Shown here: piece after piece, positions 1-11,335 of the stretch
Position numbering within the stretch: position 1 is the first letter of the stretch
Layout: each line of letters opens with the position of its first letter
Virus record (IMG/VR): IMGVR_UViG_3300015174_000004
Span: 1-11,335 of that record
From: a virus
Taxonomy: Duplodnaviria; Heunggongvirae; Uroviricota; Caudoviricetes
Length of the DNA stretch: 11,335 bases
Strand: one strand, 5' to 3'
The notes under the pieces: generated by a model
The model's input: only the letters and a program-made list of their open reading frames with translations
Database searches by the model: none
Told to the model about the DNA's origin: nothing
Position numbers and translations under genes: made by a program

Positions 1-1077
1 GATGAATGGAACCAGCAGGAGGCCGCCCGCATTGCGACAGAAGCATACTCATCCTCAATGATCCAGCGCACCAACCAGATTAAAGAAAATCTTGGTTATC
101 TTGAGACTGCATGTAAAGCAGTCGCAAACTCCGCAAAATGGGCATGGGATTCCATGCTGGATATTGGCAGTGAGGCCTCCCTTGATCAAAAAATCTCAGA
201 TGTTCTACGTCAAATTGATGAAATAGAAAAAAATACCCGACCCGGAGTTTTCGGGTTAGGTGGCATTGGAGATGGCGGAGCTCAAAATAAAAAGCTGGCA
301 CGATTAAAGCAGCAATTGGGCGTACTTCAAGCAGAAAAAATTGCTCAGGACGTACTAAATTCATCAATAAACGATTACAACAAGCGACAACAGGAAGGAA
401 TTGAACTCAGACAGAGAGCAGATGCTTTTTCAAAACAATATCAGACCCGGGAGCAGCAGAGAGCTAGTGAACTTGCAAAACTGGAAAAGCTAAAGAATCA
501 GTATTCAAAGGAAGAATATAATAATCTTATCGCTCAAATAAATGAGCGTTATAAAGATCCAAAGCAACCAAAGGCGAAAGGTTATTCGGATGATGCTGCC
601 CAACGAGTGATTGATCATCTGAATCAACAGAATGCGTTACTAAGTTCACAAGCTGAATTGACCGTTAAATTAAGTTCCTCTGAACAGGAACTGGTTAAGT
701 GGCGTCAGCAGATTGCCGACCTGGAGTCACGACCGTCATCGAAATTAACCCAGGATCAGAAATCGCTTCTCTTACACCGGGAAGAAATAACCGCGTTGAT
801 GGAGAAAAATGTTGCGATTGAAAAAAATAACAGGCTAATCAAGGAATCCGCCGAAATAGCTGCATGGCGTGATTCATTGCAGGCTTCAATTGATAATCGT
901 CAGCAGGGGTATGATATTCAGATTGCTGGTTATGGGGTTGGCGATAAAAATCAGCAACGCCAGCAGGAATTACTGCGGATTGAACGTGAATATAACAATC
1001 AGCGTCTGCAACTTGAACGTGACTATGCAGATAAATCCCGTGGGATGTCAAATCATGTTTTTCAGGAGAAAATGTAG
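1..1077 (+). CDS. Phage tail tape measure protein, 5'-partial; reading frame is closed by an in-frame TAG at 1075-1077
   Basis: Frame 1 is open from base 1 (the gene starts upstream of the window). The translation is rich in Q/E/K/R with coiled-coil character, typical of tape measure proteins, and it sits immediately upstream of the M-L-K-I-J tail-tip genes. The region is AT-rich compared with L-J. Confidence 0.7.
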   Translation, partial: DEWNQQEAARIATEAYSSSMIQRTNQIKENLGYLETACKAVANSAKWAWDSMLDIGSEASLDQKISDVLRQIDEIEKNTRPGVFGLGGIGDGGAQNKKLARLKQQLGVLQAEKIAQDVLNSSINDYNKRQQEGIELRQRADAFSKQYQTREQQRASELAKLEKLKNQYSKEEYNNLIAQINERYKDPKQPKAKGYSDDAAQRVIDHLNQQNALLSSQAELTVKLSSSEQELVKWRQQIADLESRPSSKLTQDQKSLLLHREEITALMEKNVAIEKNNRLIKESAEIAAWRDSLQASIDNRQQGYDIQIAGYGVGDKNQQRQQELLRIEREYNNQRLQLERDYADKSRGMSNHVFQEKM

Positions 1078-1242
1078 GCTCTGAATGATGCTCTGGAACG
1101 AGAAAAAGAAATTGTCAGACAGAAAAACGAGCAGCTCGATATTCAGGCAGGAGACTGGGTTAGTGGTGCCTCCCAGGGATTCAATAACTGGCTGGATGAC
1201 ACTAAGGATATCAGTGAGCAGATAAAATCAACCACGACTCAG

Positions 1243-1812
1243 ATGTTTGATGGAATGACCGATGCGCTGGGTGATTTTGTCACGACAGGCAAGGCAAATT
1301 TTCGTTCTTTCGCTACTTCCGTGATTTCGGATCTTAGTCGAATAGCATTAAAGGCTTCAATTACTGGGATTTTCGACAGCATTAGTAACAGTTCTTCGGG
1401 GGGGATTTTAGGAACTATCGGGAGTGCTATTAGTAAATTTATTCCGAATGCAAAGGGCGGTGTTTATGAGTCTCCGTCATTGAACACGTATTCGAACGGT
1501 ATTTATGATTCCCCGCAATTTTTTGCTTTTGCAAAAGGGGCTGGTGTTTTTGGTGAGGCTGGTCCGGAAGCCATTATGCCATTAACACGAACTTCCGATG
1601 GTTCTCTTGGTGTCAGAGCTATTAATTGTAAAAGTGGTAATGGAGGCGGAGATATTACCTATGCCCCTGTATACCAAATCACTATTCAAAATGACGGCCA
1701 GAATGGAGAGATTGGCCCTCAGGCAATAAAAGCACTTATGGGGATGGTTGATCAGCGGGTGCAGGGCAATCTGTTAAATATGCGACGTGATGGGGGAATG
1801 TTAAGTGGCTAA
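1243..1812 (+). CDS. Tape measure protein C-terminal segment, same frame as 1-1077; the in-frame continuation actually begins at 1078 directly after the TAG
   Basis: Frame 1 has no stop from 1078 to the TAA at 1810-1812. The translation is Gly/Ser-rich and hydrophobic, as expected for a tape measure C-terminus. There is no Shine-Dalgarno sequence before the ATG at 1243, so independent initiation is unlikely. Together with 1-1077 this looks like one gene interrupted by one amber codon. Confidence 0.6.
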   Translation: MFDGMTDALGDFVTTGKANFRSFATSVISDLSRIALKASITGIFDSISNSSSGGILGTIGSAISKFIPNAKGGVYESPSLNTYSNGIYDSPQFFAFAKGAGVFGEAGPEAIMPLTRTSDGSLGVRAINCKSGNGGGDITYAPVYQITIQNDGQNGEIGPQAIKALMGMVDQRVQGNLLNMRRDGGMLSG

Positions 1813-2143
1813 TACGGAAGAATTTCACTGGTTACCAGAGGATGGAATGAAAACAGAAAATAAACCATCGATAAAAACTGTAAGATTTGGCGATGGTTAT
1901 GAGCAACGAAGTCCAAATGGACTTAATCATTCTCTGCGCGTTTTCACCTGTGATTTCAAAGTTGAGGCGAATGAACGTGATTCATTTGAAAAATTTTTAG
2001 CCCGGCATGAAGGCTATAAATCTTTTTTTTGGCGCCCGCCTGGTATTAACAGAAAAATCAGAGTGGTGTGTCGAACGTGGTCAGCGACAGAACATATCAC
2101 CTATACCGATTTTTCGTGTCAGTTTGACGAAGTGGTGATCTGA
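1805..2143 (+). CDS. M: Minor tail / tail-tip assembly protein, lambda gpM-like
   Basis: A 112-aa ORF with a GTG start at 1805, preceded by GGGGGAA, and overlapping the tape measure stop. It contains a VRFGDGY motif and has the size and position of lambda gpM. An alternative start is the ATG at 1847, which has a GAGGA upstream. Its stop TGA (2141-2143) overlaps the L start as TGATG. Confidence 0.75.
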   Translation: MANTEEFHWLPEDGMKTENKPSIKTVRFGDGYEQRSPNGLNHSLRVFTCDFKVEANERDSFEKFLARHEGYKSFFWRPPGINRKIRVVCRTWSATEHITYTDFSCQFDEVVI

Positions 2144-2841
2144 TGCAGGACATACAACAGGAAACGCTGAATGAATGCATTCGTGCGGAGCAGTCGGCCA
2201 GCGTGGTGCTCTGGGAAATCGACCTGACCGAGGTAGGCGGGGATCGCTACTTTTTCTGCAATGAGCAGAACGAGAAAGGAGAGTCTGTCACCTGGCAGAG
2301 TCGGCAGTATCAGGCCTATCCCATTCAGGGGAGTGGATTTGAGATGAACGGCAAAGGTGCCAGTGCAAGGCCAACGCTGAAAGTCTCTAATCTGCACGGC
2401 ATGGTCACCGGGATGGCGGAAGACCTGCAGAGTCTGGTCGGCGGAACGGTGGTCAGGCGTAAGGTTTACGCCCGTTTTCTGGATGCGGTGAACTTCGTCA
2501 ACGGAAACAGTGACGCCGATCCGGAGCAGGAGGTGATCAGCCGCTGGCGTATTGAGCAGTGCAGCGAACTGAGCGCGGTCAGTGCCTCCTTTGTACTGTC
2601 CACGCCGACGGAAACGGACGGTGCCGTTTTTCCGGGGCGCATCATGCTGGCTAATACCTGCACCTGGACCTATCGCGGTGATGAGTGCGGTTATCACGGT
2701 CCGGCGGTCGCGGATGAATATGACCAGCCGACATCCGAAATCACGAAGGATAAATGCAGCAAATGCCTGAGTGGCTGTAAGTTCCGCAATAATGTCGGCA
2801 ACTTTGGCGGCTTCCTTTCCATTAACAAACTTTCGCAGTAA
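2143..2841 (+). CDS. L: Minor tail protein L, lambda gpL-like
   Basis: A 232-aa ORF whose translation (MQDIQQETLNECIRAEQSASVVLWEIDLTEVGG... CSKCLSGCKFRNNVGNFGGFLSINKLSQ) matches lambda gpL as I recall it almost residue for residue. It includes the C-terminal Cys cluster. GC content rises abruptly at its start. Confidence 0.9.
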   Translation: MQDIQQETLNECIRAEQSASVVLWEIDLTEVGGDRYFFCNEQNEKGESVTWQSRQYQAYPIQGSGFEMNGKGASARPTLKVSNLHGMVTGMAEDLQSLVGGTVVRRKVYARFLDAVNFVNGNSDADPEQEVISRWRIEQCSELSAVSASFVLSTPTETDGAVFPGRIMLANTCTWTYRGDECGYHGPAVADEYDQPTSEITKDKCSKCLSGCKFRNNVGNFGGFLSINKLSQ

Positions 2842-2845
2842 TCCC

Positions 2846-3589
2846 ATGACAGAGACAGAATCAGCGATTCTGGCGCACGCCCGGCGATGTGCGCCAGCGG
2901 AGTCGTGCGGCTTCGTGGTGAGAACGTCGGAAGGGGAAAGATATTTTCCCTGCGTGAATATCTCCGGTGAGCCGGAGGATTATTTCCGGATGGCTCCGGA
3001 GGACTGGCTGCAGGCAGAAATGCAGGGTGAGATTGTGGCGCTGGTCCACAGCCACCCCGGTGGTCTGCCCTGGCTGAGTGAGGCTGACCGGCGGCTGCAG
3101 GTGCAGAGTGATTTGCCGTGGTTGCTGGTCTGCCGGGGGGCGATTCATAAGTTCCGCTGTGTGCCGCATCTCACCGGGCGGCGCTTTGAGCACGGGGTGA
3201 CGGACTGTTACACGCTGTTCCGGGATGCTTATCATCTGGCGGGGATTGAGATGCCGAATTTTCATCGCGGGGATGACTGGTGGCGTCACGGCCAGAATCT
3301 CTATCTGGATAATCTGGAGGCCACAGGGCTGTATCAGGTGCCGTTGTCATCAGCACAACCGGGCGATGTGCTGCTGTGCTGTTTTGGTTCATCGGTGCCG
3401 AATCATGCCGCCATTTACTGTGGTGACGGCGAGCTGCTGCACCATATTCCTGAACAACTGAGCAAACGAGAGAGGTATACCGACAAATGGCAGCGACGCA
3501 CACACTCCCTCTGGCGTCACCGGGCATGGCGCGAATCTGCCTTTACGGGGATTTACAACGATTTGGCCGCCGCATCGACCTGCGTGTGA
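2846..3589 (+). CDS. K: Tail-tip assembly protein K, lambda gpK-like, with an MPN/JAMM-type domain and an NlpC/P60-like domain
   Basis: A 247-aa ORF from the ATG at 2846, which lies 5 nt after the L stop. It has a JAMM-like motif (E...HSHPGGLPWLSEAD) and a papain-like Cys/His signature (TDCYTLF ... NHAAIY). A shorter alternative start is the ATG at 2990 (MAPEDW...). The six-frame ORF from 2771 overlaps L and is not the likely start. Confidence 0.8.
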   Translation: MTETESAILAHARRCAPAESCGFVVRTSEGERYFPCVNISGEPEDYFRMAPEDWLQAEMQGEIVALVHSHPGGLPWLSEADRRLQVQSDLPWLLVCRGAIHKFRCVPHLTGRRFEHGVTDCYTLFRDAYHLAGIEMPNFHRGDDWWRHGQNLYLDNLEATGLYQVPLSSAQPGDVLLCCFGSSVPNHAAIYCGDGELLHHIPEQLSKRERYTDKWQRRTHSLWRHRAWRESAFTGIYNDLAAASTCV

Positions 3590-4134
3590 AAACGGGGGCC
3601 GAAGCAGTCCGGGCGCTGACCACACAGCTTCCGGCGTTTCGTCAGAAACTGAGCGACGGCTGGTATCAGGTACGCATTGCCGGGCGTGATGCAGGTGAAA
3701 CTGAATTATCAGCCCGTCTTAATGAACCGCTGGCAAATGGTGCCGTGATCCACATTGTGCCGCGTCTGGCGGGAGCCAAAAGTGGCGGTCTTTTTCAGGC
3801 TGTGCTGGGGGCGGCGCTGATTGCGGTGGCATGGTGGAACCCTGCAGGTTGGTTGGGGGCTGCCGCAATTACAGGAATGTATGGTGCGGGGGCCAGTATG
3901 GTGCTCGGTGGTGTGGCGCAGATGCTGGCACCGAAAGCCAGAACTCCCCGTACACAGACAACGGATAACGGCAAACAGAACACCTATTTCTCCTCACTGG
4001 ATAACATGGTTGCCCAGGGCAATGTTCTGCCGGTTCTGTACGGTGAAATGCGCGTGGGGTCACGGGTGATTTCGCAGGAGATCAGCACGGCAGATGAAGG
4101 AGATGGTGGTCAGGTTGTGGTGATTGGTCGTTGA
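3487..4134 (+). CDS. I: Tail-tip assembly protein I, lambda gpI-like
   Basis: A 215-aa ORF with GAGAGAGG upstream of its ATG. It has a hydrophobic Gly/Ala-rich central segment and a C-terminus (YGEMRVGSRVISQEISTADEGDGGQVVVIGR) that resembles lambda gpI. It overlaps the 3' end of K by 103 nt in a different frame. Confidence 0.8.
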   Translation: MAATHTLPLASPGMARICLYGDLQRFGRRIDLRVKTGAEAVRALTTQLPAFRQKLSDGWYQVRIAGRDAGETELSARLNEPLANGAVIHIVPRLAGAKSGGLFQAVLGAALIAVAWWNPAGWLGAAAITGMYGAGASMVLGGVAQMLAPKARTPRTQTTDNGKQNTYFSSLDNMVAQGNVLPVLYGEMRVGSRVISQEISTADEGDGGQVVVIGR

Positions 4135-4151
4135 TGCAGAATGTTTTGTGT

Positions 4152-4173
4152 GAAACCGCCTCAGGGCGGTTTT
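4152..4173 (+). terminator. Perfect 8-9 bp hairpin (GAAACCGCC-TCAG-GGCGGTTTT) in the I-J intergenic spacer, followed by an interrupted T-tract; possible attenuator or RNA stability element
   Basis: The inverted repeat is read directly from the sequence between the I stop (4132-4134) and the J start (4195). The downstream T-run is interrupted (TTTTGTCGTTTCTGG), so termination would be partial at best. Confidence 0.3.
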
Positions 4174-4194
4174 GTCGTTTCTGGAGCGTGAGGA

Positions 4195-7100
4195 ATGGGT
4201 AAAGGCAGCAGTAAGGGGCATACCCCGCGCGAAGCGAAGGACAACCTGAAATCATCCCAGATGCTGAGCGTGATAGACGCCATCAGTGAAGGGCCGATTG
4301 AAGGTCCGGTGGACGGATTAAAAAGTGTGCTGCTGAATAGTACGCCGGTGCTGGACAGTGAGGGGAATACCAATATCTCCGGTGTCACGGTGGTGTTCCG
4401 GGCCGGTGAGCAGGAGCAGACACCGCCGGAGGGATTTGAATCCTCCGGCTCCGAGACGGTGCTGGGTACGGAAGTGAAGTACGACACGCCGATTACCCGG
4501 ACCATCACGTCTGCAAACATCGACCGTCTGCGCTTTACCTTCGGTGTGCAGGCACTGGTGGAAACCACCTCAAAGGGGGACCGGAATCCGTCGGAAGTCC
4601 GCCTGCTGGTTCAGATACAGCGTAACGGTGGCTGGGTGACGGAAAAAGACATCACCATTAAAGGCAAAACCACCTCGCAGTATCTGGCCTCGGTGGTGGT
4701 GGATAACCTGCCGCCGCGCCCGTTTAATATCCGGATGCGCAGGATGACGCCGGACAGCACCACAGACCAGCTGCAGAACAAAACGCTCTGGTCGTCATAC
4801 ACCGAAATCATCGATGTGAAACAGTGCTACCCGAACACGGCACTGGTCGGCGTACAGGTGGACTCGGAGCAGTTCGGCAGCCAGCAGGTGAGTCGTAATT
4901 ATCATCTTCGCGGGCGCATTCTGCAGGTGCCGTCGAACTATAACCCGCAGACGCGACAATACAGCGGTATCTGGGACGGAACGTTTAAGCCAGCATACAG
5001 CAACAACATGGCCTGGTGTCTGTGGGATATGCTGACCCATCCGCGCTACGGCATGGGAAAACGTCTTGGTGCGTCGGATGTGGATAAATGGGCGCTGTAT
5101 GTCATCGGCCAGTACTGCGACCAGTCGGTGCCGGACGGCTTTGGCGGCACGGAGCCGCGCATCACCTGTAATGCCTGGCTGACCACGCAGCGTAAGGCGT
5201 GGGATGTGCTCAGTGATTTCTGCTCGGCGATGCGCTGTATGCCGGTATGGAACGGGCAGACGCTGACGTTCGTGCAGGACCGACCATCAGATAAGGTGTG
5301 GACCTATAACCGCAGTAATGTGGTGATGCCGGATGATGGCGCGCCGTTCCGCTACAGCTTCAGCGCCCTGAAGGACCGCCATAATGCCGTTGAGGTGAAC
5401 TGGATTGACCCGAACAACGGCTGGGAGACGGCGACAGAGCTTGTTGAAGATACGCAGGCCATTGCCCGTTACGGTCGTAATGTCACGAAGATGGATGCCT
5501 TTGGCTGTACCAGCCGGGGGCAGGCACACCGCGCCGGGCTGTGGCTGATTAAAACGGAACTGCTGGAGACGCAGACCGTGGATTTCAGCGTGGGTGCTGA
5601 AGGGCTTCGCCATGTACCGGGCGATGTCATTGAAATCTGCGATGATGACTATGCCGGTATCAGCACCGGTGGTCGCGTGCTGGCGGTGAACAGCCAGACC
5701 CGGACGCTGACGCTCGACCGTGAAATCACGCTGCCATCCTCCGGTACCACGCTGATAAGCCTGGTTGACGGAAGTGGCAATCCGGTCAGCGTGGAGGTTC
5801 AGTCCGTCACCGACGGCGTGAAGGTAAAAGTGAGCCGTGTTCCTGACGGTGTTGCTGAATACAGCGTATGGGGGCTGAAGCTGCCGACGCTGCGCCAGCG
5901 ACTGTTCCGCTGCGTGAGTATCCGTGAGAACGACGACGGCACGTATGCCATCACCGCCGTGCAGCATGTGCCGGAAAAAGAAGCCATCGTGGATAACGGG
6001 GCGCACTTTGACGGCGACCAGAGCGGCACGGTGAATGGTGTCACGCCGCCAGCGGTGCAGCACCTGACCGCCGAAGTCACCGCAGACAGCGGGGAATATC
6101 AGGTGCTGGCGCGCTGGGACACGCCGAAGGTGGTGAAGGGCGTGAGCTTCCTGCTCCGTCTGACCGTAACAGCGGACGACGGCAGTGAGCGGCTGGTCAG
6201 CACGGCCCGGACGACGGAAACCACATACCGCTTCACGCAACTGGCGCTGGGGCGTTACACGCTGACAGTCCGGGCGGTAAATGCGTGGGGGCAGCAGGGC
6301 GATCCGGCATCGGTATCGTTCCGGATTGCGGCACCGGCAGCGCCTGTCACTATTGAACTGATACCAGGGTATTTTCAGATAACAGCGGTCCCGAAACTGG
6401 CTGTATATGACCCGACGGTGCAGTTTGAGTTCTGGTTCTCGGAAAAGCGGATTACCGATATCAGGCAGGTTGAAACCAGCGCGCGTTATCTTGGTACGGC
6501 GCTGTACTGGATAGCCGCCAGTAGCAATATTAAGCCGGGTTATGATTATTACTTTTATATCCGCAGCGTGAACACTGTTGGTAAATCGGCATTTGTGGAG
6601 GCCGTCGGTCGGGCGAGCGATGATGCGGAAGGTTATCTGAATTTTTATAAAGGGTTGATCAATAAAACGCATCTCGGCAAGGAACTGCTGGAAAACTTTG
6701 AGCTGACGGAAGATAACGCCAGCAAACTGGAGGAGTTTTCGAAAGAGTGGAAGGACGCTAACGATAAATGGAATGCCATGTGGGGCGTCAAAATTGAGCA
6801 GACCAAAGACGGCAAACATTATGTCGCGGGTATTGGCCTCAGCATGGAGGATACGGAGGAAGGCAAACTGAGCCAGTTCCTGGTTGCCGCTAACCGTATC
6901 GCGTTTATTGACCCGGCAAACGGGAATGAAACGCCGATGTTTGTGGCGCAGGGCAACCAGATATTCATGAACGACGTGTTCCTGAAACGCCTGACGGCCC
7001 CCACCATTACCAGCGGCGGTAATCCTCCGGCATTTTCCCTGACACCGGACGGGCGGCTGACGGCGAGAAATGCTGATATCAGCGGTAACGTGAATGCGAA

Positions 7101-7608
7101 CTCCGGGACGCTCAATAATGTCACGGTAAATGAAAACTGTACGATTAAGGGCATGCTGGAGGCGAACCAGGTCAGAGGTGACTTCGTTAAAACTGTATCC
7201 AAATCATTCCCGAAAAAGGCTGGTACGTGGGGTAACACGGAAACACCAAACGGGACGGTTACAGTCACCATTTACGATGATCATAACTTTGACCGCCAAA
7301 TCATTATTCCGCCCATTATTTTTAACGGTGTGGCGTATGACGATCCGGGGAGCGGTAATAACCCGGGAGGTACGCGATACACGGGTTATGGTTTTGAAGT
7401 TCGCAAAAATGGCGTATTAATCGCATCCAGAGAAACTAAAGGAGCCATTCCCGGTAGTTACAGTGCGGTTATTGATATGCCGAGTGGTGGTGGTAACGTC
7501 ACTCTGGAGTTTAAGATTTTCCAGAAAGGCAATCAGGGCGCAGGTAACATCACAGACTGTACGGTGATTGTGACCAAAAAAGCTGCTTCCGGTATCAGTA
7601 TCCGTTGA
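4195..7608 (+). CDS. J: Host specificity protein J (central tail fiber / tail tip), lambda gpJ-like
   Basis: A 1137-aa ORF with GGAG 8 nt upstream of its ATG. Its size, position after I, and N-terminal and central sequence are typical of lambda J. The last ~1 kb is visibly more AT-rich, consistent with an exchanged receptor-binding region. Confidence 0.9.
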
Positions 7609-7629
7609 AATATTTATAACCCCAATACG

Positions 7630-7657
7630 GGCGCCAGAAATGGCGCCTTTTTTATTT
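7630..7657 (+). terminator. Rho-independent terminator downstream of J
   Basis: GGCGCC-AGAAAT-GGCGCC forms a perfect GC-rich stem and is followed by TTTTTTATTT. It begins 22 nt after the J stop. Confidence 0.65.
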
Positions 7658-7668
7658 GTGGAGTGAGT

Positions 7669-10041
7669 ATGGCAGTACAGATTTCAGGTGTGCTGAAAGA
7701 TGGTGCGGGAAAACCAATACAGAACTGCACTATTCAACTGAAGGCAAAGCGTAACAGCACCACGGTACTGGTGAACACGGTGGCCTCTGAAAATCCGGAT
7801 GAAGCCGGGCGTTACAGCATGGATGTTGAGTATGGCCAGTACAGCGTTATCCTGCTGGTTGAAGGTTTTCCGCCTTCACATGCCGGAACCATTACCGTCT
7901 ATGAAGGTTCCAGACCAGGTACGCTGAATGATTTTCTCGGTGCCATGACGGAAGATGATGTCATGCCGGAGGCATTGCGTCGTTTTGAGGCAATGGTGGA
8001 AGAAGCGGCACGCAACGCTGAAGCCGCCTTTCAGAGCGCAGCGGCGGCAAAGAAATCCGAAGCTGCTGCGGCATCATCGAAGAACGCGGCGAAAAGCTCA
8101 GAAACGAATGCAGCTAACAGCGCACAGGCGGCAGCGGCCTCACAGACTGCATCGGCAAACTCCGCGACAGCAGCCCAAAAATCAGAAGCCAACGCGAAAA
8201 ATAGCGAAACAGCCGCAAAGACGAGCGAAACCAACGCGAAGTCCAGCCAGACGGCAGCGAAAACCAGCGAAACGAATGCCAAAGTCAGTGAAACTGCAGC
8301 GAAAAACAGCCAGGCTGCAGCAGCTGAAAGCGAGAGCGCAGCAGCCGGTTCTGCGACTTCAGCAGCTGGATTAGCAACTGCTGCGGCTAACAGCCAGAAA
8401 GCTGCGAAGGCGAGCGAAACTAACGCAAAGTCCAGCCAGACGGCAGCGAAGACCAGCGAAACGAATGCCAAAGCCAGCGAAACTGCGGCGAAAAGCAGTC
8501 AGGATGCAGCAGCCGAAAGCGAGAGTGCTGCAGCTGGTTCTGCAAGCGCGGCGGCTGCTTCTGCCACTGCATCAGCTAACAGTCAAAAAGCAGCAAAAAC
8601 CAGTGAAACCAACGCAAAGGTGAGCGAAACAGCGGCTGCGAACTCAGCGAAAGCATCGGCAGCAAGCCAGACGGCAGCTAAAGCAAGCGAAGATGCAGCC
8701 AGAGAGTACGCAAGCCAGGCTGCGGAGCCGTATAAATATGTCTTACAGCCGCTGCCTGATGTGTGGATACCATTTAACGATTCGCTGGATATGATTACGG
8801 GCTTTTCGCCGTCATATAAAAAGATTGTTATTGGTGATGATGAAATAACGATGCCTGGCGACAAGGTTGTTAAGTTTAAACGCGCATCGAAAGCAACCTA
8901 TATTAATAAATCTGGTGTGCTGACAGAGGCTGCCATTGACGAGCCACGGTTTGAACGTGATGGCCTGCTTATTGAGGGGCAAAGAACGAACTACATGCTC
9001 AATTCGGAAAGCCCTGCCAGTTGGGGGCGATCGTCAAATATGGATGTGCCCGAAACCGGGACGGATAGTTTTGGTTTTACCTATGGAAAGTTTGTCTGTA
9101 ACGATTCTCTGATTGGGCAAACCTCAGCCATTAATATGGCATCAATTGCTGCAACAAAGTCAGTTGATGTCTCAGGCGATAATAAACACGTGACAACCTC
9201 ATGTCGTTTTAAAACAGAACTGCAGGTAAGGTTGCGTATCCGGTTTGATAAATATGACGGTAGCGCAACAACTTTTCTTGGTGATGCGTATATTGATACA
9301 CAAACGCTTGAAATTAATATGACAGGCGGTGCTGCCTCAAGGATTACAGCGAGAGTCAGAAAGGACGAAGCTACCGGATGGATTTTTGCAGAGGCAACAA
9401 TTCAGGCAATTGATGGGGAGTTAAAAATAGGTTCTCAGATACAGTATTCTCCTAAGCAGGGCGGGGCAACCGTATCTGGTGACTATATTTATCTGGCCAC
9501 CCCACAAGTAGAAAATGGGCCTTGTGTATCATCTTTTATTATATCAGGAACGACGGCGGCGACCCGCGCAAGCGATATAGTTACAGTTCCAATTAAGAAT
9601 AATCTTTATAATCTTCCTTTTACGGTTCTTTGTGAGGTACATAAGAACTGGTATAAAACGCCAAATGCAGCGCCGCGTGTTTTTGACACCGGCGGTCATC
9701 AAACCGGAGCGGCTATTATTCTTGGCTTCGGTTCTTCAGCAGATTACGACGGATTTCCTTATTGCGATATTGGAGGAGCTAACAGACGGGTAAACGAAAA
9801 CGCATCGCTTGAAAAAATGGTTATGGGGATGCGTGTAAAGTCAGATCAGTCTACGTGCTCAGCAAGTAACGGGCGTATATCCAGCGAAACAAAAACCACA
9901 TGGTCCTGTATTCAGAACACCGCAATTATCCGTATTGGAGGCCAGACTACAGCCGGGTTACGTCATTTATTTGGTCATGTCAGGAATTTCAGAATATGGC
10001 ACAAGGCATTGACTGATGCTCAGGTGGGGGAGTCAATCTAA
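7669..10041 (+). CDS. stf: Side tail fiber protein: Stf-like N-terminus, Ala/Ser/Thr-rich repeat shaft, and a C-terminal domain with a LamG/concanavalin-like signature
   Basis: The ATG at 7669 is preceded by GGAG (7660-7663). The N-terminus (MAVQISGVLKDGAGKPIQNCTIQLKAKRNSTTV...GRYSMDVEYGQYSVIL) resembles lambda Stf. The middle is built from 7-aa repeats. The C-terminus ends in ...LFGHVRNFRIWHKALTDAQVGESI, which looks like the terminal strand of a LamG-like jelly-roll; this is a motif-level inference. The six-frame track starts at GTG 7663, but the ATG at 7669 is more likely. Confidence 0.85.
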   Translation: MAVQISGVLKDGAGKPIQNCTIQLKAKRNSTTVLVNTVASENPDEAGRYSMDVEYGQYSVILLVEGFPPSHAGTITVYEGSRPGTLNDFLGAMTEDDVMPEALRRFEAMVEEAARNAEAAFQSAAAAKKSEAAAASSKNAAKSSETNAANSAQAAAASQTASANSATAAQKSEANAKNSETAAKTSETNAKSSQTAAKTSETNAKVSETAAKNSQAAAAESESAAAGSATSAAGLATAAANSQKAAKASETNAKSSQTAAKTSETNAKASETAAKSSQDAAAESESAAAGSASAAAASATASANSQKAAKTSETNAKVSETAAANSAKASAASQTAAKASEDAAREYASQAAEPYKYVLQPLPDVWIPFNDSLDMITGFSPSYKKIVIGDDEITMPGDKVVKFKRASKATYINKSGVLTEAAIDEPRFERDGLLIEGQRTNYMLNSESPASWGRSSNMDVPETGTDSFGFTYGKFVCNDSLIGQTSAINMASIAATKSVDVSGDNKHVTTSCRFKTELQVRLRIRFDKYDGSATTFLGDAYIDTQTLEINMTGGAASRITARVRKDEATGWIFAEATIQAIDGELKIGSQIQYSPKQGGATVSGDYIYLATPQVENGPCVSSFIISGTTAATRASDIVTVPIKNNLYNLPFTVLCEVHKNWYKTPNAAPRVFDTGGHQTGAAIILGFGSSADYDGFPYCDIGGANRRVNENASLEKMVMGMRVKSDQSTCSASNGRISSETKTTWSCIQNTAIIRIGGQTTAGLRHLFGHVRNFRIWHKALTDAQVGESI
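8221..8598 (+). repeat. Two tandem 189-bp (63-aa) imperfect direct repeats inside stf, each built from nine 21-bp (7-aa) sub-repeats; degenerate copies extend from about 8040 to 8700
   Basis: Unit 1 (8221-8409) encodes TSETNAKSSQTAAKTSETNAKVSETAAKNSQAAAAESESAAAGSATSAAGLATAAANSQKAAK. Unit 2 (8410-8598) encodes ASETNAKSSQTAAKTSETNAKASETAAKSSQDAAAESESAAAGSASAAAASATASANSQKAAK. A third, partial unit starts at 8599. Confidence 0.8.
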
Positions 10042-10322
10042 TGAAAGATTTAACACTCAAATTTGAAGACAGGGCCGACTTTTCGGCCTTTATGGAGAGT
10101 ATTGGCTATTATGATGACGAGTCGATGCAGGATGATATTCTTATCGACGTGATAGGTAACGCGTACAAAGAAACCGGAGAACTGACTGAAGATGGCGAAC
10201 CGGTATGTGTTAAGGAAGACGGATATTTTGTAAACGTGCGCATCATTAATGATTCGCAAATATCGTCATTATTCGATGAGTACGTGGTTGCTGTTGAGCA
10301 TCAACTTCGTGGCTGGATGTGA
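10041..10322 (+). CDS. Hypothetical small, highly acidic protein (93 aa) of unknown function, translationally coupled to both neighbours
   Basis: Its ATG overlaps the stf stop as TAATG (10039-10043). Its TGA stop (10320-10322) lies inside the Shine-Dalgarno sequence (GAGGAAG) of the next gene. It has roughly 22 Asp/Glu against about 8 basic residues. I recognise no homologue. Confidence 0.55.
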   Translation: MKDLTLKFEDRADFSAFMESIGYYDDESMQDDILIDVIGNAYKETGELTEDGEPVCVKEDGYFVNVRIINDSQISSLFDEYVVAVEHQLRGWM

Positions 10323-10331
10323 GGAAGAAAA

Positions 10332-11268
10332 ATGGCTACATCGACAGTAATTCCTGATGACATCAAAACGCTAAAATCCGACGTTAGCAAATTAAAAAAC
10401 GATCAAGGAAGCTACGCAACAAAATTATATGTAGACAGCAAAGATGAAATCGTTGGTGACTGGTCTGCTTCATGGTATCAGCAGGTATTGCCAACTAGCG
10501 GAGCTATATTTGGGAGAAAACTCCGCTCAACTCACAGGACGGCAGGTGTTGAGGATGCGTATTGCGAACTATACCTCAAAAAATGGATAGACAGTCCAGG
10601 TAACGCAATGGCGCGCCTTAACCTGAACGATAACGGGACAAACATTTGCTGGGACTTTACCAACCTTTATGGCGGTACGATGATTTTTCCCGGTGACAGC
10701 GGATACCTCAAAATGGGTAACTGCCTTATGTCATACAGCAAGCGTGGAAGTAACGCGCTTATTAAATTTGATTACACCGACACATTACAGATCAAATATG
10801 CCAATCATGGGTCAACCATTACATTAAACACACAGGTAACCGCTTATGCTGGTGTTACTGCTCAATTGTGGGGCAACTCCAGCCGTCCTGTTGTTTATGA
10901 AGTCGGTGTTGATGGTGGCGCTTATATGTTCTATGCGCAGAAAAATACCGATAACACCTATATGTTAAGCGTTAATGGTGCATGTCATGCCACAGCATTT
11001 AACCAGCATTCAGACCGGGATCTGAAAGACAACATTCAGGTGATCGATAAAGCAACCGACCACATCCGTAAAATGAACGGCTATACATACACGCTTAAAG
11101 AAAACGGTATGCCCTATGCTGGTGTCATTGCACAGGAAGCTCTGGAAGCAATCCCAGAAGTTGTAGGTTCCGCAATGAAATATCAGGACGGTGCAAGCGG
11201 ATCGGAAGGTGAAGAAGGTGAACGTTATTACACAGTAGATTATTCTGGTGTTACTGGCTTGCTTGTTC
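10332..11268 (+). CDS. Short tail fiber / receptor-binding-like protein with a C-terminal intramolecular chaperone (peptidase S74-like) domain; 3'-truncated at the end of native sequence
   Basis: The ATG at 10332 follows GAGGAAG. The C-terminal region (HSDRDLKDNIQVIDKATDHIRKMNGYTYTL...YAGVIAQEALEAIPEVV) matches the hallmark of endosialidase/T5 pb1-type self-cleaving chaperone domains. It has a Ser-x4-Lys pair (S227 at 11010-11012, K232 at 11025-11027). The apparent end of the ORF (IGRASCRERV, stop at 11301-11303) is encoded by adapter sequence, so the true C-terminus is missing. Confidence 0.7.
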
Positions 11269-11335
11269 AGATCGGAAGAGCGTCGTGTAGGGAAAGAGTG
11301 TAGATCTCGGTGGTCGCCGTATCATTAAAAAAAAA
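11269..11335 (+). other. Non-biological sequence: Illumina TruSeq adapter read-through (11269-11326) followed by a 9-nt poly-A (11327-11335)
   Basis: The 58 nt AGATCGGAAGAGCGTCGTGTAGGGAAAGAGTGTAGATCTCGGTGGTCGCCGTATCATT is the standard Illumina adapter-trimming sequence, which is the reverse complement of the universal P5 adapter. It is followed by nine A's at the contig terminus. Confidence 0.92.

What the first reader, a model, noticed from the sequence alone, without database searches (positions are those of the whole stretch)
1805..2160. Abrupt mosaic junction at the M/L boundary
The tape measure and M genes are AT-rich (roughly 40% GC by eye). From the first codons of L the sequence becomes GC-rich, and L looks nearly identical to lambda L. 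This sharp change at a gene boundary with a 1-nt stop/start overlap suggests modular recombination joining a non-lambda tape-measure/M block to a lambda-type L-K-I-J block.
Basis: partly seen in the sequence, partly recalled or inferred. Interest (0 to 1): 0.4.

Follow-up and report, generated by a model that had tools for sequence, protein, structure and literature searches.

The report
Mosaic tail-gene junction in Rac-type prophage
The sharp change in base composition between tail genes M and L is a real recombination seam, where a Rac-type tail-shaft block meets the lambda-type tail-tip block, but it is an ordinary, common feature found in about 13% of complete E. coli genomes.

Summary
GC rises from 41-44% in H and M (third-codon-position GC 0.34-0.38) to 55-59% in L, K and J (GC3 0.66-0.67). 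The best change point is window 2181, on a flat top from 2140 to 2200. M's stop and L's start overlap by one base (TGATG, 2141-2145).

1. The left block is a deeply diverged homologue of lambda H-M, not something unrelated to lambda. M is 42% identical to lambda M (Pfam Phage_min_tail). The block belongs to a Rac-type E. coli prophage.
2. L is 92% (DNA) and 93.5% (protein) identical to lambda L, so not "nearly identical". The shared right block runs at least 9.1 kb, from L through the tail fibres (95.7% to phage Tritos).
3. The seam is not an event private to this window. The same join occurs in 708 of 5,426 complete E. coli genomes, in Shigella flexneri and in Escherichia ruysiae.

Four M allele classes (39-55% identical to each other) sit beside one L class (91-97%). 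In every comparison, similarity starts between 2121 and 2191.

Among Rac-type carriers the left block is at least 99% conserved in most genomes. L-K-I-J varies, and identity drops at 2155 or 2237-2270, which points to repeated exchange with the seam as its left limit. This is classic lambdoid mosaicism.

The parts
1..1812 (+). C-terminal 603 codons of the Rac-type tape-measure gene (H homologue). It is AT-rich (GC 0.42-0.445, GC3 0.365-0.38) and is interrupted by an in-frame amber codon at 1075-1077.
   Evidence: ORFs 58-1077 and 1243-1812 are in the same frame. Pfam Tape_meas_lam_C, E=2.4e-27. 26% aa identity to lambda H. CH4796 annotates an intact 1077-aa tape measure here.
1805..2143 (+). 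Gene M (distal tail protein), Rac-type allele. GC 0.407, GC3 0.336. This is the last gene of the left block.
   Evidence: Pfam Phage_min_tail, E=1.2e-31. 42% aa identity to lambda M. In the phage collection, tblastn identity is either >=99% (10 records) or <60% (546 records), with nothing between.
2121..2191 (+). Junction zone. It holds the last 22 nt of M, the TGATG stop/start overlap (2141-2145) and the first 49 nt of L. Every comparison with another M-allele class gains nucleotide similarity inside this 71-nt interval.
   Evidence: Matches start at 2121, 2132, 2140, 2158 or 2188-2191. CTGATGCAGGA is invariant in all five aligned allele classes. The composition change point is at 2181.
2143..2841 (+). 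Gene L (hub protein with the four-cysteine iron-sulfur domain), lambda-type. GC 0.555, GC3 0.670. This is the first gene of the right block.
   Evidence: Pfam Phage_tail_L, E=4.5e-98. 93.5% aa identity to lambda L. 91-97% aa identity across lambda, mEp460, PhiR49_2 and Rac-type carriers.
2846..7608 (+). Genes K (2846-3589), I (3487 or 3586 to 4134) and J (4195-7608). This is the GC-rich lambda-type tail-tip block.
   Evidence: Pfam Prok-JAB plus NLPC_P60 for K, and Lambda_tail_I for I. 92% nt identity to lambda up to 7164. GC3 is 0.56-0.66.
7663..11284 (+). Side tail fibre genes (stf homologue 7663-10041, orf 10041-10322, tail-fibre-domain gene 10332-11303). They lie in the same shared module as L-J in phages Tritos and HannyBb.
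   Evidence: Tritos matches 2140-11284 at 95.7% in one piece. Megablast gives 2191-11270 at 96.0%.

Best explanation
The M/L boundary (2121-2191) is the left edge of a tail-tip and host-range module (L-K-I-J plus side fibres) that circulates among E. coli lambdoid phages and prophages. In this Rac-type prophage the module is joined to a tail-shaft module (tape measure plus M, and the head and tube genes upstream). That shaft module has a different, AT-richer history and shares only protein-level homology with lambda.

The seam was made once, or a few times, by recombination at the gene boundary, and the product survived because it works. M (the distal tail ring) must fit its own tube and tape measure. 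It only stacks electrostatically on the L/J ring, so the M/L interface tolerates exchange.

Since then, the L-to-fibre block has been overwritten repeatedly by homologous or homeologous recombination with other resident or infecting lambdoid phages. Nucleotide homology ends at the start of L, so the left endpoints of those exchanges pile up there.

- **Shown:** the composition step, the distribution of homology, the shared seam, and the drop in identity at the seam among Rac-type carriers.
- **Inferred:** which recombination pathway acted, the direction of transfer, and the structural reason the boundary is tolerated.
For: **Composition.**
- GC3 goes from 0.34 in M to 0.67 in L. The change point is at 2181 with a log-likelihood gain of 69.
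- The rest of the prophage in CH4796 is 45-51% GC (GC3 0.39-0.52). L-J is therefore a GC-rich island with the composition of lambda's left arm: lambda H, M, L and K have GC3 0.64-0.685.

**Where homology starts.**
- Lambda homology starts at 2121 and runs at 92% to 7164.
- In a sample of 60 of the 126 matching phage records, every record that lacks the Rac-type M starts at 2121, 2132, 2140 or 2188-2191.
- The same start positions appear in sampled E. coli genomes.

**Discrete M alleles beside one L.**
- M classes are 39-65% identical at the amino-acid level.
- L is 91-97% identical in four of the five classes.

**Spread of the seam.**
- The left block occurs in 721 genomes (711 with at least 80% coverage).
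- The seam-spanning query is covered in 708 of 5,426 genomes.
- Shigella flexneri and E. ruysiae carry the same seam.

**Repeated exchange to the right of the seam.**
- The left block is >=99% identical in 613 of 721 genomes. The 1.8-kb seam-spanning query is >=99% identical in only 74.
- Mismatch density jumps at 2155 in SPF_0923 and at 2237-2270 in SUISSEKPC3NDM5.
- M is 99.4-99.7% identical in these carriers while L is 87-97%.

**Published support.**
- Lambda recombines with defective prophages, including Rac, through 88-95% identical tail-fibre regions at about 2e-6. This depends mainly on Red-beta (PMC3945230).
- Red recombines sequences that are 22% diverged. Mosaic blocks often have 64-68% identical "shoulders" (PMC2327257). 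PhiR49_2 shows such a shoulder here: 62-67% identity in M and the H C-terminus.
- In the lambda tail structure, the gpM ring anchors to the tube. Its E-loops stack electrostatically on the gpL/gpJ ring (PMC10721106).
Against: - No parent was found that carries the Rac-type H-M with an equally AT-rich L. The nearest non-Escherichia M is 43% identical, in Providencia. The original event and its direction therefore cannot be reconstructed.
- Start positions of BLAST matches depend partly on extension thresholds.
- The five allele classes give only about four independent seams.
- The H C-terminus contacts gpI in lambda. The shaft/tip split is therefore not a clean break between interaction partners. 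Compatibility probably rests on the conserved NDGxNGxIxx...RDGG motif of H.
Confidence: 0.85

Rival explanations
1. The conserved boundary sequence acts as a recombination linker. The last roughly 20 nt of M (coding F-E-Q-V-V) plus the invariant CTGATGCAGGA would be a short homology patch shared by all lambdoid tail operons. Red-type or RecET-type recombinases would swap H-M or L-J cassettes precisely there. On this reading the seam position is set by the DNA, not by selection on function.
For: - CTGATGCAGGA is invariant in five allele classes. The end of M is the most conserved part of its DNA.
- mEp460 keeps TCTGATG upstream of L even though its M stops 9 nt earlier.
- Rac-type prophages are known to encode RecET (PMC3945230).
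- Short conserved flanking sequences have been proposed as the route for some lambdoid module exchanges (PMC2327257).
Against: - The patch is only 18 of 22 matches against lambda before the start codon, which is very short for efficient recombination.
- Synonymous sites in the last codons of M vary between alleles (GTG/GTC, GAA/GAG/GAC). Conservation is therefore explained by the protein motif, by the conserved L N-terminus MQDI, and by translational coupling.
- Endpoints within the Rac lineage lie inside L, at 2155 and 2237-2270, not at the patch.
Confidence: 0.15
2. There was a single ancient illegitimate recombination, and the join has since been inherited unchanged. On this reading the variation in L-J among carriers is ordinary divergence, not later exchange.
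For: - The join is identical in all carriers examined.
- Illegitimate recombination followed by selection is the classical model when no border signals are present (PMC2327257).
Against: - Divergence is strongly asymmetric across the seam within one lineage. M is 99.4-100% identical while L is 87-97%.
- The jumps in mismatch density are abrupt (chi-square 84-91). Uniform divergence does not produce that pattern, whereas replacement of L alleles does.
- E. coli genomes with a match to the seam-spanning query hold a median of 2 matching places each (up to 13), nearly all of them to its L-K half. Donors are therefore available.
Confidence: 0.1
3. The step is not a recombination seam at all. It would reflect different mutation or selection pressure on the composition of neighbouring genes, or an assembly chimera.
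For: Gene-to-gene variation in GC is common in phages. Tetranucleotide and dinucleotide signatures differ only modestly between the blocks.
Against: - The homology distribution changes at the same place as the composition.
- Lambda, which carries the same L, has a GC-rich M, so the step is not a property of the genes themselves.
- The join is present in 708 independently completed genomes, which rules out a chimera.
Confidence: 0.02

Closest known systems
Lambdoid phage genome mosaicism (the modular evolution described for lambda, HK97, HK022, N15 and related phages)
   Same: - Sharp transitions between unrelated-looking and >90% identical DNA, located at or near gene boundaries.
- Gene order is preserved.
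- Discrete alleles of a homologous gene sit next to a shared block.
- Exchange between phages and resident prophages (PMC2327257, PMC3945230).
   Different: Nothing in kind. This is one particular seam (Rac-type H-M against lambda-type L), and its composition contrast is unusually large: GC3 0.34 against 0.67. The same boundary gives 0.49 against 0.63 in PhiR49_2, 0.545 against 0.635 in mEp460, and no step in lambda.
Bacteriophage lambda tail-tip operon H-M-L-K-I-J
   Same: - Same gene order and the same Pfam families for all five genes tested.
- The same 1-nt M/L stop/start overlap (lambda M 13100-13429, L 13429-14127).
- L-K-I-J is 92% identical in DNA.
   Different: - H and M are only 26% and 42% identical in protein and show no DNA similarity before the last 22 nt of M.
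- The J C-terminus diverges after 7164.
- The side fibres differ.
Rac prophage of E. coli (full-length Rac-type relatives)
   Same: - In CH4796 the same sequence (99.9%) lies in a prophage that contains trkG, ynaK and ydaY, next to sitABCD, uspF and ompN.
- The left block is single-copy in 721 E. coli genomes.
   Different: From my own knowledge, K-12 Rac is a deleted remnant that lacks most structural genes. I did not compare the window with K-12 Rac directly. The window also carries an amber codon in the tape-measure gene that most relatives lack.

Membership tests
Mosaic (recombinant) junction of lambdoid phages | Abrupt change from no or low nucleotide similarity to >90% similarity when compared with related phages | tested here: met
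   Against lambda there is no DNA match before 2121, then 92% over 2121-7164. The same pattern holds for 116 other phage records.
Mosaic (recombinant) junction of lambdoid phages | Junction at or near a gene boundary, with gene order conserved | tested here: met
   All similarity start points fall in 2121-2191 and L starts at 2143. The order H-M-L-K-I-J is kept.
Mosaic (recombinant) junction of lambdoid phages | The two sides have different phylogenetic distributions or histories | tested here: met
   - 10 phage records match the left side and 271 match the right.
- 721 E. coli genomes match the left block alone. 4,370 match the seam-spanning query 1243-3042, and all but about 710 of those match only its L-K half.
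- M classes are 39-65% identical, while L is 91-97% identical in four of five classes.
Mosaic (recombinant) junction of lambdoid phages | Compositional discontinuity (supportive, not required) | tested here: met
   GC3 0.336 against 0.670. Change point at 2181 with a log-likelihood gain of 69.
Lambda-type tail tip genes (M = distal tail protein, L = hub protein) | Pfam Phage_min_tail for M and Phage_tail_L for L, both above the gathering score | tested here: met
   109.8 bits (cut-off 39) for M and 327 bits (cut-off 25) for L.
Lambda-type tail tip genes (M = distal tail protein, L = hub protein) | Four cysteines in the L C-terminal domain for the [4Fe-4S] cluster (lambda Cys173, 182, 205, 212; PMC10721106) | tested here: met
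   The L translation contains ...NTCTWTYRGDECGY...DKCSKCLSGCKF... The protein is 232 aa, the same length as lambda L, and 93.5% identical. The positions were read from the sequence and not modelled structurally.
Linker-mediated module exchange (short conserved boundary sequences used for homologous recombination) | Boundary DNA conserved beyond what the coding constraint explains | tested here: inconclusive
   An invariant 11-mer spans the stop/start. However, synonymous sites in the last codons of M vary. Only five alleles were compared.
Linker-mediated module exchange (short conserved boundary sequences used for homologous recombination) | Recombination joints map to the conserved patch | tested here: not met
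   Within the Rac lineage the joints map to 2155 and 2237-2270, inside L. The original joint cannot be mapped more finely than 2121-2142.

The most novel reading that the evidence does not exclude
The M/L boundary may be a recombination hotspot across all lambdoid phages, with its position fixed by a short conserved DNA patch: the M C-terminal codons plus CTGATGCAGGA. Phage single-strand-annealing recombinases, including Rac's own RecET, would use this patch. It would work as a built-in cassette port that lets any tail shaft acquire the common E. coli host-range module.
Probability: 0.12. Interest if true: 0.4.

Novelty: already known. Interest (0 to 1): 0.15.

Why it matters
Mostly as a clean, well-quantified example. 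One tail-tip and host-range module (L to the side fibres) is shared by at least four different tail-shaft lineages in E. coli. The seam is the left limit of continuing exchange. That helps anyone annotating prophages, building phage phylogenies (H-M and L-J should not be concatenated), or engineering host range by swapping the L-J-stf cassette. It shows that a 40%-identical M works with a lambda-type L. It does not open a new question.

Tried and rejected
- **Signatures.** GC3 is the informative measure.
- **Search for an AT-rich parent** with Rac-type M and a matching L, in one genome per species. Only Shigella flexneri and E. ruysiae carry close relatives, and both have the same seam. The next relative is 43% identical (Providencia) and has uniform composition. 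The donor lineage remains unknown.
- **Functional element at the seam.**
  - Rfam gave no match in the whole window.
  - Promoter-like sites in 1500-3000 are at the shuffled expectation (1 found, 1.4 expected).
  - Four terminator-like sites were found against 1.2 expected, but none lies at the seam; the nearest are at 1998-2016 and 2236-2248.
  - The minus-strand ORF 2119-2847 is antisense to the GC-rich L and was treated as a shadow ORF.
- **Co-variation of the L N-terminus with the M allele.** The window's L N-terminus is nearly lambda-like although its M is only 40% identical to lambda's. Strict co-adaptation is rejected.
- **Literature.** The paper on co-transfer in lambdoid phages (PMC9836094) has no text on H/M/L boundaries. 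A search for Rac, tape measure and GC content returned nothing relevant.
- **Left-only joins.** No case of Rac-type H-M next to something other than lambda-type L appeared in the sampled rows. The counts of 711 and 708 genomes leave room for at most a handful.

Full report
**What the window is**

The 11,335-base window is the tail end of the late operon of a lambdoid prophage of E. coli.
- It is 99.9% identical over 1-11270 to the chromosome of strain CH4796.
- In CH4796 it lies in a prophage containing trkG, ynaK and ydaY, next to sitABCD, uspF and ompN. That makes it a full-length Rac-type prophage.
- The + strand carries these genes:

| Gene | Coordinates |
|---|---|
| Tape measure (H homologue), last 603 codons | 1-1812 |
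| M | 1805-2143 |
| L | 2143-2841 |
| K | 2846-3589 |
| I | ends at 4134 |
| J | 4195-7608 |
| Tail-fibre genes (three) | 7663-11303 |

- Pfam confirms the families: Tape_meas_lam_C, Phage_min_tail, Phage_tail_L, Prok-JAB plus NLPC_P60, and Lambda_tail_I.

**Checking the observation**

The composition step is real and large.

| Gene | GC | GC3 |
|---|---|---|
| H (two fragments) | 0.42-0.445 | 0.365-0.38 |
| M | 0.407 | 0.336 |
| L | 0.555 | 0.670 |
| K | 0.589 | 0.657 |
| J | 0.558 | 0.661 |

- A two-segment likelihood scan of 1-6300 puts the change point at 2181. The log-likelihood gain is 69, and the top is flat from about 2140 to 2200.
- Oligonucleotide signatures separate the blocks only weakly.
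- "Nearly identical to lambda L" is too strong. Identity is 92% in DNA over 2121-7164, 87% over the first 158 nt of L, and 93.5% in protein.

- The left block (1-2142) matches only 10 phage records, at 98.4-99.1%. All are prophage-derived E. coli phages, plus Salmonella phage SPF_0923.
- The right block (2143-6600) matches 271 records. The best full-length matches are about 93-95% and include lambda, mEp460, cdtI and many others.
- Lambda has no detectable DNA similarity to the window before 2121.
- In a sample of 60 of the 126 phage records matching 1805-2500, every record without the Rac-type M begins at 2121, 2132, 2140 or 2188-2191.
- Sampled E. coli genomes give the same start points, plus one at 2158.

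**The left block is a distant allele, not a foreign gene set**

- M is 42% identical to lambda M and H is 26% identical to lambda H.
- M exists among E. coli phages as discrete classes: Rac-type, lambda-type, mEp460-type, PhiR49_2-type and Stx-type. They are 39-65% identical to each other.
- L is 91-97% identical in four of these five backgrounds and 76% in Stx phages.
- The M/L boundary is therefore a general seam of lambdoid tail operons.
- The Rac-type case simply has the largest composition contrast:

| Background | GC3 of M | GC3 of L |
|---|---|---|
| Rac-type (window) | 0.34 | 0.67 |
| PhiR49_2 | 0.49 | 0.63 |
| mEp460 | 0.545 | 0.635 |
| Lambda | 0.655 | 0.661 (no step) |

- In CH4796 the head and tube genes are 45-51% GC. 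L-J is thus a GC-rich island with the composition of lambda's left arm.

**The right block is longer than L-K-I-J**

Phage Tritos matches 2140-11284 at 95.7% in one piece. The seam is therefore the left edge of a tip-plus-fibre module of at least 9.1 kb.

**The seam is old and common**

- The left block (1243-2120) occurs in 721 of 5,426 complete E. coli genomes. It is single-copy and >=99% identical in 613 of them.
- The seam-spanning query (1243-3042) is covered in 708 genomes. Essentially every Rac-type H-M is joined to a lambda-type L.
- Shigella flexneri and Escherichia ruysiae carry the same seam with the same GC step.
- The nearest M outside Escherichia and Shigella is 43% identical, in Providencia rustigianii. 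There H-M-L-K is uniformly AT-rich. No AT-rich parent of the left block was found.

**Exchange has continued to the right of the seam**

- Only 74 genomes are >=99% identical over the seam-spanning query, against 613 for the left block alone.
- In SPF_0923, SUISSEKPC3NDM5, S. flexneri and E. ruysiae, M is 98.7-99.7% identical to the window. L is 87-98% and I is 82-91%.
- Mismatch density jumps at 2155 in SPF_0923 (chi-square 91) and at 2237-2270 in SUISSEKPC3NDM5 (chi-square 84).
- E. coli genomes with a match to the seam-spanning query hold a median of 2 matching places, and up to 13. Nearly all of these match only its L-K half, so donors are plentiful.

**Mechanism**

- The best reading is ordinary lambdoid mosaicism. 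A join at the gene boundary survived because it works. Repeated homologous or homeologous replacement of the L-to-fibre block followed. The left endpoints of those replacements are bounded by the loss of homology at M.
- Published experiments show that lambda picks up DNA from defective prophages, including Rac, through 88-95% identical tail-fibre regions. This is mainly Red-beta dependent (PMC3945230).
- Red also recombines sequences that are 22% diverged (PMC2327257).
- The lambda tail structure gives a functional reason for this boundary. The gpM ring is anchored to the tube, and its E-loops only stack electrostatically on the gpL/gpJ ring (PMC10721106).
- H does contact gpI across the seam. 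However, the H C-terminal motif NDGxNGxIxx...RDGG is conserved in all five classes.

**The linker alternative**

- CTGATGCAGGA is invariant across the five classes, and M's last codons (F-E-Q-V-V) are its best-conserved DNA.
- Synonymous sites in those codons vary. The 11-mer is explained by the stop/start overlap plus the conserved L N-terminus MQDI. The mapped joints within the Rac lineage lie inside L.
- I give the linker idea about 0.12-0.15.

**Nothing else sits at the seam**

There is no Rfam family in the window. In 1500-3000, promoter-like sites are at chance level. Terminator-like sites are somewhat above it (4 found, 1.2 expected), but none lies at the seam.

**Verdict**

The feature is a textbook mosaic junction, already present in hundreds of public genomes. 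Interest is low.

Noticed in passing
window 1075-1077: An in-frame amber codon (TAG) splits the tape-measure gene. ORFs 58-1077 and 1243-1812 share one frame. Six other Rac-type carriers have CAG (Gln) here: CH4796, VTB97379v, SUISSEKPC3NDM5, SPF_0923, S. flexneri and E. ruysiae. vB_EcoS-683R6 has the same TAG and a split annotation. The prophage is probably tail-defective, except in a glutamine-inserting amber suppressor host. That last point is inference.
   Followed up: partly
window 2140-11284: Phage Tritos matches the whole stretch from the M/L boundary to the last tail-fibre gene at 95.7%, reaching 100% in the 300-nt bins covering 7201-7800 and 10201-10800. HannyBb matches 2191-11270 at 95.7% by megablast. 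Everything to the left is unrelated at the DNA level. The unit exchanged is therefore a tip-plus-fibre module of at least 9.1 kb.
   Followed up: partly
window 3590-4134 (gene I): Gene I is a low-identity patch in every comparison: 73% to lambda at 3601-3900 and 82-91% among Rac-type carriers. The flanking K and J are 95-98% identical. This looks like a small mosaic insert within the shared block.
   Followed up: no
window 6300-7608 (J C-terminal third): GC falls from 0.63-0.67 to 0.46-0.50 at about 6300-6800. Lambda similarity drops to 88-90% and ends at 7164. Other Rac-type carriers fall to 78-81% after 6692. This is a second mosaic junction, inside J in its C-terminal third, the part expected to bind the receptor.
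   Followed up: no
window 8203-8619 (inside the stf homologue): A 189-nt tandem repeat of 2.2 copies at 81% identity, with nested 42-nt and 21-nt units. The region has very strong A-over-T skew (about +0.6) at 56-57% GC. It codes for a repetitive Ala/Lys/Ser/Thr-rich stretch of the side tail fibre.
   Followed up: no
window 1519-1581: A 62-nt island of 82-84% DNA identity to the tape-measure genes of mEp460 and Tritos, in an otherwise unalignable gene. It codes for the conserved motif FAFAKGAG..GEAGPEAI.PL. Protein constraint is the likely reason.
   Followed up: partly
L003 3941-3955 (mEp460 M/L boundary): In mEp460, M ends with TAG and a 9-nt spacer with GGAGG follows. The sequence TCTGATG just before and into L's start codon is still kept. 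This suggests L's left edge brought along a remnant of the overlapping-stop arrangement.
   Followed up: no
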